This document shows positions 51-10,504 of a stretch of DNA of 64,000 nt, piece by piece. A model generated the notes under the pieces. That model worked only from the letters and a program-made list of their open reading frames with translations. It was not told the origin of the DNA and ran no database searches. Origin of the DNA: Escherichia coli (GTDB lineage: Bacteria > Pseudomonadota > Gammaproteobacteria > Enterobacterales > Enterobacteriaceae). Each line of letters starts with the position of its first letter. Within the stretch, counting starts at the first letter, position 1. The translations under genes and the position numbers were made by a program. The stretch lies in the NCBI RefSeq assembly GCF_046105845.1, contig NZ_CP151004.1; one strand, 5' to 3'.

Positions 51-79
51 CGGCTTCCCCCAGGAGGCCGTTTTTTTTT
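51..79 (+). terminator. Candidate intrinsic terminator (GC stem cggcttcc/ggaggccg followed by a T9 run), probably ending the upstream gene that lies before the window
   Basis: Seen in sequence: 7-8 bp stem with 4-nt loop followed by ttttttttt at 71-79. Upstream gene not visible in the window. Confidence 0.5.
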
Positions 80-139
80 GCCTGTCATTCTGATTAATTT
101 TCATATTGTCGTTTTTGTGATCATTATCTCGACATTTAA

Positions 140-1075
<936 letters not shown>

Positions 1076-5590: not shown

Positions 5591-5668
5591 GGTATTGTGC
5601 AAAACAGATCATTCACCAATGGTCCCCCTTCGTTTACACTAGCCACAATTGAATATGGGTAAATGACG

Positions 5669-6442
5669 ATGAATTCATTCGAGCGAAGGAATAAGATCAT
5701 CCAATTAGTGAATGAACAGGGAACCGTGCTTGTTCAGGATCTGGCGGGAGTATTTGCTGCCTCGGAAGCGACAATCCGTGCCGATTTGCGCTTTCTTGAA
5801 CAAAAAGGCGTGGTTACGCGCTTTCATGGCGGTGCGGCGAAAATAATGTCCGGTAATAGTGAAACCGAGACCCAGGAAGTCGGGTTTAAAGAGCGATTTC
5901 AGCTCGCCAGTGCGCCAAAAAACAGAATAGCGCAGGCGGCAGTCAAAATGATCCACGAAGGGATGACCGTTATTCTCGACAGCGGAAGTACGACAATGCT
6001 TATCGCCGAAGGTTTAATGACCGCCAAAAATATCACGGTGATTACCAACAGTCTCCCGGCGGCGTTTGCCCTTTCCGAAAATAAAGACATTACTCTGGTC
6101 GTCTGTGGTGGGACCGTCCGCCATAAAACACGCTCGATGCATGGTTCCATTGCCGAGCGTTCATTGCAGGATATTAATGCCGATTTAATGTTTGTGGGTG
6201 CTGATGGTATTGATGCGGTTAATGGTATTACGACCTTTAATGAAGGCTATTCGATTAGCGGGGCGATGGTCACAGCCGCAAATAAAGTGATTGCCGTTCT
6301 CGATTCATCGAAATTTAATCGTCGCGGTTTTAATCAGGTACTGCCAATCGAAAAAATCGACATTATTATTACCGACGATGCTGTGTCAGAGGTGGATAAA
6401 CTGGCATTGCAGAAGACACGGGTGAAATTAATTACGGTGTAG
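5669..6442 (+). CDS. gatR: DeoR-family transcriptional repressor of the gat operon (apparently intact)
   Basis: ORF 5663..6442 (259 aa); N-terminal HTH, DeoR-type C-terminal domain. Start set at 5669 (MNSFERR...), with 5663 as alternative. Uninterrupted reading frame. Confidence 0.88.
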   Translation: MNSFERRNKIIQLVNEQGTVLVQDLAGVFAASEATIRADLRFLEQKGVVTRFHGGAAKIMSGNSETETQEVGFKERFQLASAPKNRIAQAAVKMIHEGMTVILDSGSTTMLIAEGLMTAKNITVITNSLPAAFALSENKDITLVVCGGTVRHKTRSMHGSIAERSLQDINADLMFVGADGIDAVNGITTFNEGYSISGAMVTAANKVIAVLDSSKFNRRGFNQVLPIEKIDIIITDDAVSEVDKLALQKTRVKLITV

Positions 6443-6455
6443 TATTGCTCTGTAT

Positions 6456-6484
6456 GCCGGATAAAGTTTTTACACCGCATCCGG
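6456..6484. repeat. REP-like palindromic element (gccggat...atccggc) in the convergent gatR/yegS intergenic region
   Basis: Seen in sequence: inverted repeat GCCGGAT / ATCCGGC typical of enterobacterial REP units. Confidence 0.6.
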
Positions 6485-6523
6485 CATTACGGATTCTCCC
6501 TGGTTCAAGAGAGAATAGTGTGA

Positions 6524-7423
6524 TTAACGCAACAATGGGCAATCTGGTGGTAATCGACAACGCAACGCCGCCGGAAGTATTTCAATATGAAAGTTTTGTC
6601 CGCTCAACGGTTCGCCATCAAGATTAAAAGTGATTTCGTGTGGGGCTTGTATATCAAACCACGACGAAGCGCCTTCGATAATATTCGGGTTATCTTCGTC
6701 AGATTTTAATGTTGATACGAGAGCCGGAAGAATTTCATCGCCGGTAAAAATGCGCAGTTGCAGCAAGCCATCGTTAATTAACGCGTTCGGGCACAATTGC
6801 TGACCGCCACCGGCCTGACGCCCGTTACCAATACCAATGACCAGGGCGTCACCTTGCCAGTGAAAGTTTTCACCGCGGATCTCACAACGGTCCGGTTGCA
6901 GAGTATCCATGCGCATTAAGCCATGAATGATGTAAGAGACGCCACCCAGCGCGGCTTTTAATTTTTCCGGCGTTTCTGTGGTAATACGCGTCCCAAATCC
7001 GCCTGTCGCCATATTAATAAAACAGGTTTGTTTGTTGACCTGCGCCATATCTATCGCAATGGCGTCACCGGCAATTGCCAGTTTCAGCGCCTTATCCAGT
7101 GCCTCAGGAATCCCTACACTGGTGGCAAAATCATTGGCGGTTCCTAATGGTAAAATTCCCAGCGCGGGTATGTCATCCCCCTCACACTGAATCAACGCCG
7201 TAGAAACTTCATTAATGGTGCCATCGCCACCACCGGCAATCACCGTTGCGACGCCCAACTTCCGGGCCTCCTCTACATATCGTGCGGCATCGCCTTTCTC
7301 CCAGGTGACCCGCACATGGATCGTCATTCCTTCCTCACGCAACAGCATAATTGCTTCGCGCAAGGGTAGATTGTCAGTACTTTTGCCATTAAGAATCAGT
7401 AAGCTGGCGGGAAAATCTGCCAT
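6524..7423 (-). CDS. yegS: Lipid kinase YegS (diacylglycerol-kinase catalytic-domain family)
   Basis: 299-aa ORF with GGDGT motif; recognised as YegS. Confidence 0.9.
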
Positions 7424-7836
7424 GATCGTATGTGCCTTTATGATTGGTCTGTAGATAGTGTAGAGCAGAAAAGAAAAGGTGGAGTCAGAACAGGATGAAA
7501 GTCTGAGGATAAAAAGTCAGTTCAAGTATGGGGGATTCAGTGGTTACCACCAGGAGCTTGCAATGGGAACCGCGAATATTAACGGTAGCCACCGATAAAT
7601 TTCAAAAAAGAGCATATGCCTAATATTCAACCAAACAGTGGCATCTTAAATATACTATTCCAAATATATTAAAGCCCCATGGAGTTACTTGGAAAGGGCC
7701 TTCATGTCTGTAATTCCTACTTATGTAGGAAATGTTGTACAGAACATTTATTATAATCCTATTCAAATATAATAATCAGCCATTATTATATTTAAACACT
7801 AGAGAGTGTCGTTGGTATTTAATGGGGGAAGGTGAG

Positions 7837-8154
7837 ATGAAAAAGATAGCTGCTATATCATTAATTAGTATTTTTATTATGTCTGGTTGTGCTGTGCATA
7901 ATGATGAGACAAGTATCGGTAAATTTGGTCTTGCATATAAAAGTAATATTCAGCGTAAACTCGATAACCAATACTACACCGAAGCCGAAGCTTCTTTAGC
8001 CAGGGGCAGAATATCTGGTGCAGAAAATATAGTAAAAAATGATGCAGCCCATTTCTGTGTTACTCAGGGCAAAAAAATGCAGATAGTTGACCTGAAGACA
8101 GAAGGTGCAGGATTACATGGCGTCGCTCGTCTGACATTCAAATGTGGAGAGTGA
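7837..8154 (+). CDS. yegR: Small predicted lipoprotein YegR (105 aa)
   Basis: ORF track gives 7732..8154, but the in-frame ATG at 7837 is preceded by an RBS (gggggaaggtgag) and starts a lipoprotein signal peptide MKKIAAISLISIFIMSGC (lipobox MSGC). Confidence 0.8.
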   Translation: MKKIAAISLISIFIMSGCAVHNDETSIGKFGLAYKSNIQRKLDNQYYTEAEASLARGRISGAENIVKNDAAHFCVTQGKKMQIVDLKTEGAGLHGVARLTFKCGE

Positions 8155-8312
8155 GAATATTTTTTGGTAAGCGTCAAACATGCGCGTTCTGGTTGTGCTT
8201 AGCCGGAACCAGTGCGAGCACGATGCCGTTACGTGAAAGGCATCGTGCTATGAAGGGAGATTCTATCGATGTGGTCAATGGAAGACGGTGACCAGGGATA
8301 GGGCTTATGCAT

Positions 8313-8399
8313 AAAAAATAAGCCCGTGTAAGGGAGATTACACAGGCTAAGGAGGTGGTTCCTGGTACAGCTAGCATTTTATGGGTTATGTTTTTCAGC
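8313..8399 (-). ncRNA. cyaR: CyaR (RyeE) Hfq-dependent small RNA
   Basis: Minus-strand sequence GCTGAAAAACATAACCCATAAAATGCTAGCTGTACCAGGAACCACCTCCTTAGCCTGTGTAATCTCCCTTACACGGGCTTATTTTTT matches my recollection of CyaR, including the terminator hairpin (CCCTTACACGGGC) plus U-tract; located downstream of yegQ as in K-12. Confidence 0.85.
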
Positions 8400-8433
8400 G
8401 AAACGGATGATAACCTTAATAAATGCAGCTGTA

Positions 8434-8449
8434 TGTGATCGGTTTCTAA
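8434..8449. promoter_or_regulatory. Candidate CRP site (TGTGA-N6-TCTAA) centred about 42 bp upstream of the CyaR 5' end
   Basis: Seen in sequence: TGTGATCGGTTTCTAA; CyaR is known to be cAMP-CRP activated. The right half-site is imperfect. Confidence 0.45.
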
Positions 8450-8483
8450 GAATTTTCCATCCGGGAAAAATAATCGAAATTAA

Positions 8484-9845
8484 TCACTTACCGTGGGGGT
8501 TACGCGTGGTTTCCCCGGAGAAATTACGCATCAGCAGCGCGTAATTTAGCTCAAGATCCTGCGGCACCGGGATCCACACAGTATAACCATCGCCCGGTGC
8601 GACCGGCATTGCTTCGCCTTTGGCGTTTTCCATCTGCTCAAGGGTAAAGTTAATGTTGCCATGCGGCGTCATCAGCTCAAGGCTGTCGCCAACGGAGAAT
8701 TTATTTTTCACCGCTACCGCCGCGAGGTCGCCCTTGCGCTCACCGGTAAACTCACCAACAAACTGCTGGCGGTCAGAAACTGAATAACCGTATTCGTAGT
8801 TCTGATAATCATCGTGAGTATGACGACGCAGGAAACCTTCGGTATAGCCACGATGCGCCAGACCTTCCAGAGTTTCCAGCAGGCTGGTATCGAACGGTTT
8901 GCCCGCAGCGGCGTCATCGATAGCTTTACGATAAACCTGCGCGGTGCGTGCGCAATAGTAGAAAGATTTGGTACGGCCTTCGATTTTCAGCGAATGCACG
9001 CCCATTTTGGTCAGGCGTTCAACGTGGGCGATGGCACGCAGATCTTTCGAGTTCATGATGTAAGTGCCGTGCTCATCTTCAAACGCGGTCATATACTCGC
9101 CCGGACGCTGGGCTTCTTCGATCATAAACACTTTGTCGGTCGGCGCGCCGATACCCAGCGTCGGCTCAACATTTTGCACCGGAATCGGCTCGTACTTATG
9201 TACGATGTTGCCAACATCATCTTCTTTCCCTTCCTGGACGTTGTACTCCCAGCGGCAGGCGTTGGTGCAGGTGCCCTGGTTCGGGTCGCGCTTGTTGATA
9301 TAGCCAGAGAGCAGGCAGCGACCGGAGTAGGCCATGCACAGCGCGCCGTGAACGAAGATTTCGATCTCCATATCTGGCACCTGATTGCGGATCTCTTCAA
9401 TCTCTTCCAGCGACAGCTCGCGAGAGAGGATCACGCGGGTCAGGCCCATTTGCTGCCAGAATTTCACCGTCGCCCAGTTCACGGCGTTAGCCTGTACCGA
9501 GAGATGGATTGGCATTTCAGGGAAGTGCTCACGCACCAGCATAATCAGCCCTGGATCAGACATAATCAGCGCATCCGGCCCCATTTCCACCACCGGTTTC
9601 AGGTCACGGATAAAGGTTTTCAGCTTGGCGTTGTGCGGTGCAATGTTGACCACGACATAAAACTTTTTCCCCAGCGCATGGGCTTCATTAATGCCGAGCT
9701 GAAGATTTTCGTGGTTGAATTCGTTGTTGCGCACACGCAGGGAGTAACGCGGCTGGCCCGCATAAACAGCATCTGCGCCATAAGCGAAAGCGTAACGCAT
9801 ATTTTTCAGCGTTCCCGCCGGGGAAAGGAGTTCCGGTTTAAACAT
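8484..9845 (-). CDS. yegQ: Peptidase U32-family protein (YegQ/TrhP-type, implicated in tRNA U34 hydroxylation)
   Basis: 453-aa ORF; recognised as YegQ by sequence and position. Confidence 0.88.
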   Translation of the reverse strand: MFKPELLSPAGTLKNMRYAFAYGADAVYAGQPRYSLRVRNNEFNHENLQLGINEAHALGKKFYVVVNIAPHNAKLKTFIRDLKPVVEMGPDALIMSDPGLIMLVREHFPEMPIHLSVQANAVNWATVKFWQQMGLTRVILSRELSLEEIEEIRNQVPDMEIEIFVHGALCMAYSGRCLLSGYINKRDPNQGTCTNACRWEYNVQEGKEDDVGNIVHKYEPIPVQNVEPTLGIGAPTDKVFMIEEAQRPGEYMTAFEDEHGTYIMNSKDLRAIAHVERLTKMGVHSLKIEGRTKSFYYCARTAQVYRKAIDDAAAGKPFDTSLLETLEGLAHRGYTEGFLRRHTHDDYQNYEYGYSVSDRQQFVGEFTGERKGDLAAVAVKNKFSVGDSLELMTPHGNINFTLEQMENAKGEAMPVAPGDGYTVWIPVPQDLELNYALLMRNFSGETTRNPHGK

Positions 9846-9992
9846 AATTCTCTCGTTCTGATGACAGGTCAGATCCGCTTCACCTGATGAAGCGGTTAGG
9901 GGAGTGCCCCCACTTTAAGGGCGGGCATTGTAGCGCTGTAGGGGGGAGCTGGTAAAGCGCCAGACGCCAACAACACGCGCCCGGCATCGTAA

Positions 9993-10325
9993 TTACGTAT
10001 TGTCTTTCACCGTCTGGCTTGTGCCATTGGCTTTAACGGAGGCAATTCCGGTTTCACGAGATTGCGCGGTGGCGTACATCTGGCTGGAGCCGATAATTTG
10101 ATGATTGGCGGCTTTCAGATTGAAATAGAATTTGCCGTTGCTTGCCGTTTTTTTCTCATAGCGTTCTTCTTGCGGGCTGTTGCTACGCACCGACGCGATA
10201 CCCTTTTCCGCAGAGGCTTTTGAGGTATATAGCTCGCTGGTGAGGATAGTCTCACCATTGCCCGCTTTTAGCACAAACCGGAACTGATTATCACTGCTCT
10301 TACTGAGTTCAAACCAACCAGCCAT
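9993..10325 (-). CDS. yegP: UPF0339/DUF1508 tandem-domain protein YegP
   Basis: ORF 9993..10364; likely true start is the internal ATG at 10325 (MAGWFELSKSSDNQFRF..., 110 aa). Two internal repeats of the KASAEKGIASV / RETGIASVKANG motif are visible. Confidence 0.8.
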   Translation of the reverse strand: MAGWFELSKSSDNQFRFVLKAGNGETILTSELYTSKASAEKGIASVRSNSPQEERYEKKTASNGKFYFNLKAANHQIIGSSQMYATAQSRETGIASVKANGTSQTVKDNT

Positions 10326-10463
10326 AATGACTCCTTGATTGAAATTGCGTATCGAAAACAGCATCTAAAAGGACTGTTTACCGATTAAAGTATGAGCGAT
10401 TTTCAGGCGGTTGCCAGGGCGAAGAGATAATGTCAGATAGCCGACAATGCATGGGATAATGTT

Positions 10464-10495
10464 GCCGGATGCGGCGTGAATGCCTTCTCCGGCAG
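10464..10495. repeat. REP element (gccggatgcggcgtgaatgccttctccggcag)
   Basis: Seen in sequence: classic REP consensus GCCGGATGCGGCGTGAA. Confidence 0.65.
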
Positions 10496-10504
10496 GTAAA
10501 AATG

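What the first reader, a model, noticed from the sequence alone, without database searches (positions are those of the whole stretch)
7714..7748. Two abutting perfect palindromes in the yegS/yegR divergent intergenic region
ttcctac-ttat-gtaggaa (7714-7731) is immediately followed by aatgtt-gtacag-aacatt (7731-7748) in an AT-rich promoter region about 90 bp upstream of the yegR start. Adjacent dyad symmetries of this kind are typical of dimeric regulator operators, and no regulator is assigned here to my knowledge.
Basis: seen in the sequence. Interest (0 to 1): 0.3.

Follow-up and report, generated by a model that had tools for sequence, protein, structure and literature searches.

The report
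Known EvgA operator upstream of yegR
The first palindrome is the already-described binding site of the acid-stress response regulator EvgA in front of the E. coli yegR gene, and the second palindrome next to it loses its symmetry in diverged relatives, so this is ordinary, known biology.

Summary
Both palindromes are real. TTCCTAC-TTAT-GTAGGAA lies at 7714-7731. The second is slightly longer than reported: AAATGTT-GTACAG-AACATTT, 7730-7749. They lie in the 37% GC spacer between yegS and yegR of E. coli.

The claim that no regulator is assigned is wrong. Palindrome 1 fits the EvgA box, TTCYTAC-N4-GTARGAA. In K-12 that pattern marks the promoters of emrK/evgA, frc, yfdX, safA, ydeP and yegR. The K-12 yegR site is identical to the one here, and a review states that EvgA binds the yegR promoter. 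In a lineage whose promoter is only 66% identical, all 14 arm bases are kept and 3 of 4 spacer bases differ, as expected for a dimer operator.

Palindrome 2 shows the opposite pattern. Its arms are broken without compensation in both diverged alleles (5/7 and 2/7 complementary). The two common E. coli polymorphisms fall in its loop. No second copy exists in the window. It is most likely incidental symmetry in the AT-rich stretch between the EvgA box and the core promoter.

The most likely mechanism is that an EvgA~P dimer activates a sigma-70 promoter (TTCAAA-16-TATTAT, 7762-7789) from about -73. This geometry is inferred, not shown.

Novelty: already known. Interest: low.

The parts
7714..7731 (.). 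EvgA box: 18-bp inverted repeat TTCCTAC-TTAT-GTAGGAA (arms 7714-7720 and 7725-7731)
   Evidence: perfect dyad; the same pattern within 2 mismatches lies upstream of emrK/evgA, frc, yfdX, safA and ydeP in K-12; 1 hit against 0.01 expected; identical in K-12; arms 14/14 conserved and spacer 1/4 conserved in the most diverged allele; top hit of the window for a PWM built without yegR.
7730..7749 (.). Second palindrome AAATGTT-GTACAG-AACATTT, sharing 2 nt with the EvgA box; probably incidental symmetry in the AT-rich stretch between the box and the core promoter
   Evidence: perfect 7-nt arms; arms broken in the N96-type allele (AAATTCT, 5/7) and in L005 (AAAGAGT/AACAAAT, 2/7); the two common E. 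coli variants fall in the loop; no second copy in the window.
7762..7767 (+). Candidate -35 hexamer TTCAAA of the favoured core promoter (Pb)
   Evidence: TTCAAA-16-TATTAT, 9/12. TATTCAA is invariant in all seven aligned alleles.
7784..7789 (+). Candidate -10 hexamer TATTAT of Pb; predicted start near 7796, which puts the EvgA box centre near -73.5
   Evidence: a -10-like hexamer 52-54 nt after the box recurs at yegR (all alleles), safA, frc, the proximal yfdX box and emrK; that recurrence is only suggestive (P=0.064). L005 has TATTGT, which keeps -12T, -11A and -7T.
7752..7757 (+). Alternative -10 hexamer TATAAT (Pa); it would place the EvgA box at -41.5 and palindrome 2 in the spacer
   Evidence: 6/6 match, no -35. 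L005 has TGTAAT, which loses the critical A at -11, so this option is less favoured.
7837..8154 (+). yegR, a 105-aa lipoprotein (lipobox MSGC); the gene controlled by the site
   Evidence: annotated yegR / lipoprotein YegR. (PF27694). (alignment).
6524..7423 (-). yegS (lipid kinase), the divergent neighbour; its start lies 291 nt from the EvgA box

Best explanation
Palindrome 1 (7714-7731) is the EvgA box of the yegR promoter. It is the operator for a dimer of phosphorylated EvgA, the NarL/FixJ-type response regulator of the acid-sensing EvgS/EvgA phosphorelay. Each 7-nt arm (TTCYTAC) is contacted by one subunit, and the 4 central bases are not read. When EvgS is activated (mild acid), EvgA~P binds and activates sigma-70 transcription of yegR, a small lipoprotein gene. 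yegR is induced together with yfdX, ydeO and emrK. The core promoter is most likely TTCAAA(7762-7767)-16-TATTAT(7784-7789), with a start near 7796. That puts the box centre near -73.5, an upstream, class-I-like position. Palindrome 2 (7730-7749) fills the AT-rich gap between the box and the -35 hexamer. It is most likely incidental symmetry, possibly serving only as AT-rich DNA where the RNA polymerase alpha C-terminal domain docks, and not a separate operator. Shown here: the match to the EvgA-box pattern, identity to the K-12 site, and the conservation pattern. Taken from the literature: EvgA binding and induction. Inferred: promoter geometry, start site and the role of the gap.
For: (1) Pattern TTCYTACN4GTARGAA within 2 mismatches hits K-12 DNA in the upstream regions of emrK/evgA, frc, yfdX, safA, ydeP and yegR. 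The only other hits in 44 kb have 3 mismatches.
(2) There is one hit in the 64-kb window against 0.01 expected. A PWM built from the five non-yegR sites ranks 7714-7731 first in the window.
(3) From 7711 to the ATG the window differs from K-12 by one substitution and one 1-nt indel. The 54 nt just upstream are only 36/54 identical, so the box is the upstream edge of the conserved promoter module.
(4) In L005 the promoter is 66% identical. The arms are 14/14 conserved and the spacer 1/4 (TTAT to AAAC).
(5) The 40-mer 7712-7751 is identical in 4683 of 5418 E. coli records. The box is intact in at least 98.9% of records. evgA is present in 5398 of 5426 genomes.
[quoted passage not shown] An EvgA binding site is found in all directly regulated genes (PMC4283999). 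EvgA binds inverted repeats at yfdX and yfdW (PMC3720670). yegR rose 11.9-fold together with yfdX, ydeO and emrK (PMC5811628).
(7) From memory: Masuda and Church 2002 reported the 18-bp motif TTCPyTACA-TGTAPuGAA upstream of the EvgA-regulated operons, including yegR.
(8) Against a role for palindrome 2: its arms are broken in both diverged alleles while the EvgA arms stay intact.
(9) For promoter Pb: -35 TTCAA is invariant, the -10 keeps its key bases in L005, and -10-like hexamers sit at +52 to +54 in 5 of 7 EvgA boxes.
Against: The leave-one-out PWM score is only marginally above chance for a 64-kb search (null maximum reaches it in 4.5-10% of resamples). The yegR site deviates from the other sites at an inner position (ACT instead of ACA). 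No transcription start data could be obtained. The shared -10 offset is only suggestive (P=0.064), so the -73.5 geometry could be wrong; the alternative is -41.5 with TATAAT at 7752-7757. An abutting perfect second palindrome is rare by chance (about 0.001 per spacer). Within typical E. coli its arms carry no common polymorphism while its loop carries two. A lineage-restricted function for palindrome 2 is therefore not excluded.
Confidence: 0.85

Rival explanations
1. Palindrome 2 is an operator for a second, still unassigned dimeric regulator (for example a repressor that blocks EvgA or RNA polymerase). It would act only in mainstream E. coli and would have been lost or replaced in the diverged alleles.
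For: Perfect 7-nt arms directly abut a real operator, and such a pair is expected about 0.001 times per spacer. In 5396 mainstream E. coli records the two frequent variants (297 and 347 records) both fall in the loop and not in the arms. The outer bases AAATGT...ACATTT resemble the flanks of CRP-type and GlpR/DeoR-type dyads (from memory). An intact DeoR-type gatR lies 1.3 kb away.
Against: The arms are not maintained in the N96-type allele (22 complete genomes plus a metagenome contig; 5/7) or in L005 (2/7), with no compensatory changes, while the EvgA arms are 14/14 in both. In L005 the loop is conserved (6/6) and the arms are not, the reverse of an operator signature. Everything from 7711 to the ATG is nearly invariant in mainstream E. 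coli, so the absence of arm polymorphisms is not significant (about 1.1 expected, my estimate). There is no second copy in 64 kb. The spacing is 2 bp too short for CRP or GlpR-type sites. The gatY promoter (1-193) shows a different dyad, TGTTTT-N7-AAAACA.
Confidence: 0.1
2. Palindrome 2 is part of an extended EvgA footprint. A second EvgA dimer binds cooperatively next to the primary box, as described for the homologue BvgA at Bordetella promoters (from memory), bridging the primary site to RNA polymerase.
For: The palindrome directly abuts the primary box on its promoter-proximal side. The core T..ACA.AACA is invariant across all alleles. yfdX carries two EvgA-like boxes.
Against: There is no resemblance to the EvgA half-site. 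The best PWM score anywhere in 7732-7800 is -7.1, against +11.8 for the primary box under the same PWM. The centre-to-centre distance is 17 bp, which is not an integral number of helical turns. The symmetry is not conserved.
Confidence: 0.08
3. Alternative geometry for the same EvgA mechanism: the box is centred at -41.5 and replaces the -35 element (class II, like the lux box of LuxR). It would use TATAAT at 7752-7757, with palindrome 2 simply being the promoter spacer.
For: A perfect TATAAT starts 21 nt after the box and no -35 hexamer is present. T.TAATC is invariant across alleles.
Against: L005 has TGTAAT, which loses the essential A at -11, although its EvgA box is intact. None of the other EvgA-box promoters has a good -10 at that offset, whereas 5 of 7 have one at +52 to +54.
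Confidence: 0.25
4. Both palindromes are chance products of AT-rich DNA with no function.
For: Single 7-nt-arm palindromes are common: 68 in the window, and P=0.23 for at least one in this spacer.
Against: Palindrome 1 matches a specific consensus shared by six EvgA-controlled promoters. Its arms survive 34% promoter divergence. The literature reports EvgA binding at this promoter.
Confidence: 0.02

Closest known systems
EvgA box of the E. coli K-12 yegR (yegRZ) promoter, and the EvgA boxes of emrK/evgA, frc (yfdW), yfdX, safA-ydeO and ydeP
   Same: The 18 bp are identical to K-12. The arms TTCYTAC/GTARGAA are the same as at the other five promoters. The site sits about 115 nt upstream of the ATG, comparable to safA (120 nt) and yfdX (106-144 nt).
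   Different: The window's allele lacks the PR-X remnant (ogrK, yegZ) that follows yegR in K-12, so the transcription unit here is yegR alone. The inner bases are ACT-TA-TGT rather than the usual ACA-NN-TGT. The candidate promoter spacer is 16 bp here and 17 bp in K-12. The DNA upstream of the box is highly diverged (36/54).
BvgA binding sites of Bordetella (inverted TTTCCTA-type heptads; BvgA is the closest characterised homologue of EvgA). Recalled from memory.
   Same: Inverted heptads with the shared core TTCCTA, bound by a phosphorylated NarL/FixJ-family dimer that activates from upstream of the core promoter.
   Different: BvgA promoters use several cooperatively bound dimers reaching the -35 region. 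No secondary EvgA-like half-sites were found here. The organism and regulon are different.
Other NarL/FixJ (LuxR-type HTH) operators: NarL 7-2-7 heptamer pairs and the 20-bp lux box at -42.5. Recalled from memory.
   Same: A short inverted repeat read by a dimer of GerE/LuxR-type helix-turn-helix domains. A class II position like that of the lux box is the alternative geometry (Pa).
   Different: The half-site sequence and spacing differ. The favoured position here is about -73, not -42.5.
CRP site consensus AAATGTGATCTAGATCACATTT (compared with palindrome 2). Recalled from memory.
   Same: The outer six bases on each side (AAATGT / ACATTT) are identical.
   Different: Palindrome 2 is 20 bp, not 22 bp (TGT-N8-ACA instead of TGT-N10-ACA). 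It lacks the TGTGA/TCACA cores, so it does not fit a CRP dimer.

Membership tests
EvgA box (operator of the EvgS/EvgA regulon) | 18-bp inverted repeat with arms TTCYTAC(A)/(T)GTARGAA separated by a short unread spacer | tested here: met
   14/14 arm positions match. Both arm variants (TTCTTAC and TTCCTAC) occur among the five other K-12 sites. One hit against 0.01 expected in the window.
EvgA box (operator of the EvgS/EvgA regulon) | Scores as a site with a model built only from other EvgA sites | tested here: inconclusive
   It is the top hit of the 64-kb window at all three pseudocounts tested. A random 64 kb reaches the same score in 4.5-10% of resamples, because the model rests on only five sites.
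EvgA box (operator of the EvgS/EvgA regulon) | Lies in the promoter region of a gene induced through EvgA | tested here: met
   The gene is the orthologue of K-12 yegR. yegR is listed among EvgA-bound promoters (PMC8147483). It is co-induced with yfdX, ydeO and emrK (PMC5811628).
EvgA box (operator of the EvgS/EvgA regulon) | Arms under stronger constraint than the spacer and flanks in diverged orthologues | tested here: met
   In L005 the arms are 14/14, the spacer 1/4, the upstream 54 nt 28/54, and the whole promoter 117/177. In N96 the arms are 14/14. The box is intact in at least 98.9% of 5418 E. coli records.
EvgA box (operator of the EvgS/EvgA regulon) | Direct binding of EvgA~P (EMSA or footprint) and loss of induction when the arms are mutated | not testable with these tools
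   Known only from the literature for the identical K-12 sequence (review PMC8147483). The primary paper, Itou et al. 2009, is not held.
EvgA box (operator of the EvgS/EvgA regulon) | The cognate regulator is encoded in the same genome | not testable with these tools
   evgAS lies outside the window (about 315 kb away in K-12). evgA is present in 5398 of 5426 complete E. coli genomes and is described as present in virtually every isolate (PMC5706723).
Independent dimeric-regulator operator (palindrome 2) | Dyad symmetry beyond chance | tested here: inconclusive
   The 7-nt arms are perfect. A single such dyad is expected 0.33 times per spacer. An abutting pair has P of about 0.001, but this is a post hoc statistic.
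Independent dimeric-regulator operator (palindrome 2) | Arms conserved, or changed in a compensatory way, in orthologous promoters | tested here: not met
   N96-type: left arm AAATTCT, right arm unchanged (5/7). L005: AAAGAGT/AACAAAT (2/7), with the loop 6/6 conserved.
Independent dimeric-regulator operator (palindrome 2) | The motif recurs at other promoters (a regulon) | tested here: not met
   There is no other match within 2 mismatches in the 64-kb window. The relaxed ATGTT-N6-AACAT hits are all imperfect and at chance level (6 against 2.4 expected). A genome-wide scan was not possible.
Independent dimeric-regulator operator (palindrome 2) | Match to a known operator consensus (CRP, GlpR/DeoR-type, LexA, TyrR) | tested here: not met
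   Comparison by eye with consensus sequences recalled from memory. The spacing is 2 bp too short for CRP and GlpR-type sites, and there is no LexA or TyrR core. No motif database was available.

The most novel reading that the evidence does not exclude
In mainstream E. coli, the second palindrome (AAATGTT-N6-AACATTT, 7730-7749) is the operator of an unassigned dimeric regulator that gates EvgA-dependent activation of yegR. One speculative candidate is a DeoR-type protein such as the neighbouring GatR, whose gene is disrupted by IS3E in K-12, where much of the cited EvgA work was done. No evidence found here points to GatR. The site would have been lost in the N96-type and L005-type alleles.
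Probability: 0.08. Interest if true: 0.4.

Novelty: already known. Interest (0 to 1): 0.1.

Why it matters
The result removes a false lead. The regulator of this promoter is known: EvgA, of the acid-resistance phosphorelay. Two things may be of modest use to specialists. First, there is a clean natural mutagenesis series for the EvgA box: the arms are invariant across 34% promoter divergence, the spacer is free, and the box forms the sharp upstream edge of the conserved promoter. Second, a -10-like hexamer recurs 52-54 nt after the box at most EvgA targets, which predicts activation from about -73 and can be tested by a single start-site mapping. YegR itself remains a lipoprotein of unknown function.

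Tried and rejected
**Literature**
- The primary EvgA papers were not held: Masuda and Church 2002 (PMC151933), Ma et al. 2004 (PMC523220), Eguchi et al. 2011 (PMC3067605) and Thomason et al. 2015 (PMC4288677).
- Text searches for the consensus string found nothing useful.

**Start-site data for yegR**
- The Cappable-seq GTF is truncated when stored.
- The Kim 2012 supplements have no yegR entry.
- No supplements are held for Conway 2014.
- The CsrA paper gives no safA or yegR start site.

**Nac as a regulator of this promoter (rejected)**
- The Nac ChIP-seq peak assigned to yegR (PMC5217608) converts, by my estimate of the offset between the old and current K-12 coordinates, to a position 3' of yegR in the yegZ/PR-X region.
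- That region is absent from this window.
- Nac also represses evgA, so the drop in yegR can be indirect.

**Protein-guided search for more diverged orthologous promoters**
- Most hits of lower identity were ordinary E. coli with frameshifted gene calls and an identical promoter.
- Only L005 and the N96 type (L012, L019) were informative.

**Other ideas considered and rejected**
- P2 Ogr/Delta-type TGT-N12-ACA element: rejected, because the spacing here is N8.
- CRP, LexA, TyrR, LysR-type T-N11-A and GlpR-type sites for palindrome 2: rejected on spacing or core sequence, judged from memory of the consensus sequences.
- RNA structure in the putative 5' UTR 7796-7850: none (z = -0.10).
- Other Rfam families in 6000-10500: only CyaR.
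- The promoter predicted by Shimada et al. (TAAACA-18-TATATT) lies in the hypervariable stretch upstream of the box and is not conserved here.

Full report
**Observation**

The window around the finding is the gat-yegS-yegR-cyaR-yegQ(trhP) region of E. coli. yegS is at 6524-7423 on the minus strand and yegR at 7837-8154 on the plus strand. The ATG is at 7837 (after a frame error).

Both dyads exist. The first is TTCCTAC-TTAT-GTAGGAA at 7714-7731. The second has 7-nt arms rather than 6-nt arms: AAATGTT-GTACAG-AACATTT at 7730-7749, overlapping the first by two bases.

The 413-bp spacer is 37% GC, against 52% for the window. Perfect 7-nt-arm inverted repeats with loops of 8 nt or less occur about once per kb in the window (68 in total). 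About 0.33 are expected in this spacer, so one such palindrome means little by itself. An abutting pair arose in only about 0.1% of resampled spacers, and this is the only such pair in the window.

**Palindrome 1 is the EvgA box**

From memory, EvgA-activated operons of K-12 carry an 18-bp inverted repeat, TTCPyTACA-TGTAPuGAA (Masuda and Church 2002). That paper is not in the held library, so I tested the idea directly.

I fetched three K-12 regions and scanned them for TTCYTACN4GTARGAA. Every hit within 2 mismatches lies in the upstream region of a known EvgA target:

| Target | Mismatches |
|---|---|
| emrK/evgA spacer | 1 |
| frc | 0 |
| yfdX | 1 |
| safA | 1 |
| ydeP | 2 |
| yegR | 0 |

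yfdX also has a weaker proximal copy with 3 mismatches.

- In the 64-kb window the pattern hits once, at 7714-7731, against 0.01 expected.
- A weight matrix built from the five non-yegR sites ranks this site first in the window at every pseudocount. With only five training sites, a random 64 kb reaches the same score in 4.5-10% of resamples.
- The K-12 yegR site is identical to the site in the window.

Accessible literature supports the assignment:
[quoted passage not shown] - EvgA binds inverted repeats at yfdX and yfdW (PMC3720670).
- yegR rose 11.9-fold together with yfdX (9.8-fold), ydeO and emrK under an acidifying treatment (PMC5811628).

**Comparative evidence**

The yegS-yegR spacer is unusually variable. 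It is only 92.8% identical to K-12.
- The 54 nt immediately upstream of the box are 36/54 identical to K-12.
- From 7711 to the ATG there is one substitution and one 1-nt indel.
- The box therefore forms the upstream edge of the conserved promoter module.

Two diverged alleles were found.
- **L005.** This is a GTDB species representative labelled E. coli. Its yegS-yegR segment is 83% identical to the window, against 95% for the flanking trhP segment. Its promoter is 117/177 identical. The EvgA arms are 14/14 conserved and the spacer changes from TTAT to AAAC.
- **N96 type.** This allele is found in 22 complete genomes and one metagenome contig. Its EvgA box is intact.

Across 5418 E. coli records:
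- The 40-mer 7712-7751 is identical in 4683.
- The two common variants, in 297 and 347 records, lie outside the box.
- At most 62 records (1.1%) carry any other change in 7711-7740.
- Two such changes were seen: T7715C in strain GmM077, and A7731G in strain P276M, where yegR itself is decayed.

evgA is present in 5398 of 5426 genomes. More distant yegR homologues (76-83% identity) in other Enterobacteriaceae have a different upstream region; those with readable flanks sit in a different gene context. None has an EvgA-like box upstream of the gene.

**Palindrome 2**

Its behaviour is the reverse of an operator's.
- In the N96 type the left arm is AAATTCT and the right arm is unchanged, so complementarity falls to 5/7.
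- In L005 the arms are AAAGAGT and AACAAAT (2/7), while the loop is 6/6 conserved.
- Only T..ACA.AACA is invariant across alleles.
- In mainstream E. coli the two frequent polymorphisms (G7737T and G7742A) fall in the loop. The whole promoter is so conserved there that the absence of arm polymorphisms is not informative: I estimate about 1.1 expected.
- No second copy exists in the window.
- It does not resemble an EvgA half-site; the best local PWM score is -7.1.
- By eye its outer bases match the flanks of the CRP consensus, but the spacing is 2 bp too short. The same holds for GlpR/DeoR-type dyads.
- The gatY promoter in the window shows a different dyad.

I conclude that it is most likely incidental symmetry. 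I leave about 10% for a lineage-restricted second regulator and about 8% for an extended EvgA footprint.

**Mechanism**

Two core promoters are possible.
- **Pa.** It uses the perfect TATAAT at 7752-7757. This puts the box at -41.5 and palindrome 2 in the promoter spacer.
- **Pb.** This is TTCAAA (7762-7767), a 16-bp spacer, then TATTAT (7784-7789). K-12 has a 17-bp spacer. The start would be near 7796 and the box near -73.5.

I favour Pb at roughly 2:1, for three reasons.
- In L005 the Pa hexamer becomes TGTAAT, which loses the essential A at -11. The Pb hexamer becomes TATTGT, which keeps -12T, -11A and -7T.
- TATTCAA is invariant in all alleles.
- A -10-like hexamer starts 52-54 nt after the box at yegR, safA (with an extended TG), frc, the proximal yfdX box and emrK. 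A rotation test gives only P=0.064 for this recurrence.

No start-site data could be obtained, so this step is inference. Under Pb, palindrome 2 occupies about -66 to -47. That is the AT-rich gap where the alpha C-terminal domain of RNA polymerase would sit next to an upstream activator.

**Comparison and verdict**

The site is a member of the EvgA-box family. It is in fact the same site already described for K-12 yegR. It resembles the inverted heptads bound by BvgA and other NarL/FixJ-type operators (from memory). Novelty: already known. Interest: low.

Noticed in passing
window 8316-8401 (-) and 8155-8315: The CyaR sRNA (Rfam RF00112, 100.7 bits) lies 161 nt after yegR. The 629-bp cryptic P2 remnant PR-X (ogrK, yegZ) that separates yegR from cyaR in K-12 is absent, so the K-12 'yegRZ' unit is yegR alone in this strain.
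   Followed up: partly
window 5663-6442 (+): gatR is an intact 259-aa DeoR-type ORF here. In K-12 it is split by IS3E, so regulation that depends on GatR would be invisible in K-12 experiments.
   Followed up: no
window 7640-7713; L005 1703-3318: The DNA just upstream of the EvgA box is hypervariable within E. coli (36/54 identical to K-12, with an 8-bp indel). In L005 the whole yegS-yegR segment is 83% identical to the window, against 95% for the adjacent trhP segment. This suggests an old divergent allele or a recombination patch.
   Followed up: partly
window 7762-7796: The longest dyad of the spacer has 15-nt AT-rich arms (TTCAAATATAATAAT / ATTATTATATTTAAA, 93% complementary). It embeds mirror-image promoter-like hexamer pairs on both strands: plus strand TTCAAA-16-TATTAT and minus strand TTTAAA-16-TATTAT. 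The minus-strand pair matches the TTTAAA-17-TATTAT that Shimada et al. predicted for yegS.
   Followed up: partly
window 7593-7601: CGATAAATT matches 9 of 10 positions of the H-NS high-affinity motif TCGATAAATT (consensus recalled from memory). Shimada et al. 2014 flag H-NS for the yegR/yegS spacer.
   Followed up: no
L022 (strain GmM077) and L024 (strain P276M): Rare natural variants hit the EvgA box arms: TTCCTAC to TCCCTAC in GmM077, and GTAGGAA to GTAGGAG in P276M. In P276M the downstream promoter and yegR are rearranged and no gene is annotated.
   Followed up: partly
window 7776-7777: This allele has a 1-nt deletion relative to K-12 and most E. coli (TCAGCC against TCATGCC). It shortens the candidate promoter spacer from 17 to 16 bp and moves the EvgA box one base closer to the core promoter.
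   Followed up: no
L007, L008, L009, L020: YegR homologues of 76-83% identity exist in a few other Enterobacteriaceae (records labelled Klebsiella sp. and Cedecea sp., plus a MAG and an unlabelled sequencing-run contig). Where flanks are readable they lie in a different gene context. None has an EvgA-like box upstream of the gene. The YegR family (PF27694) is very narrow (78 clusters found).
   Followed up: partly
window 70-193: The gatY promoter region carries a dyad TGTTTT-N7-AAAACA (about 158-176) just upstream of the gatY start. It is a candidate GatR operator and differs from palindrome 2.
   Followed up: no
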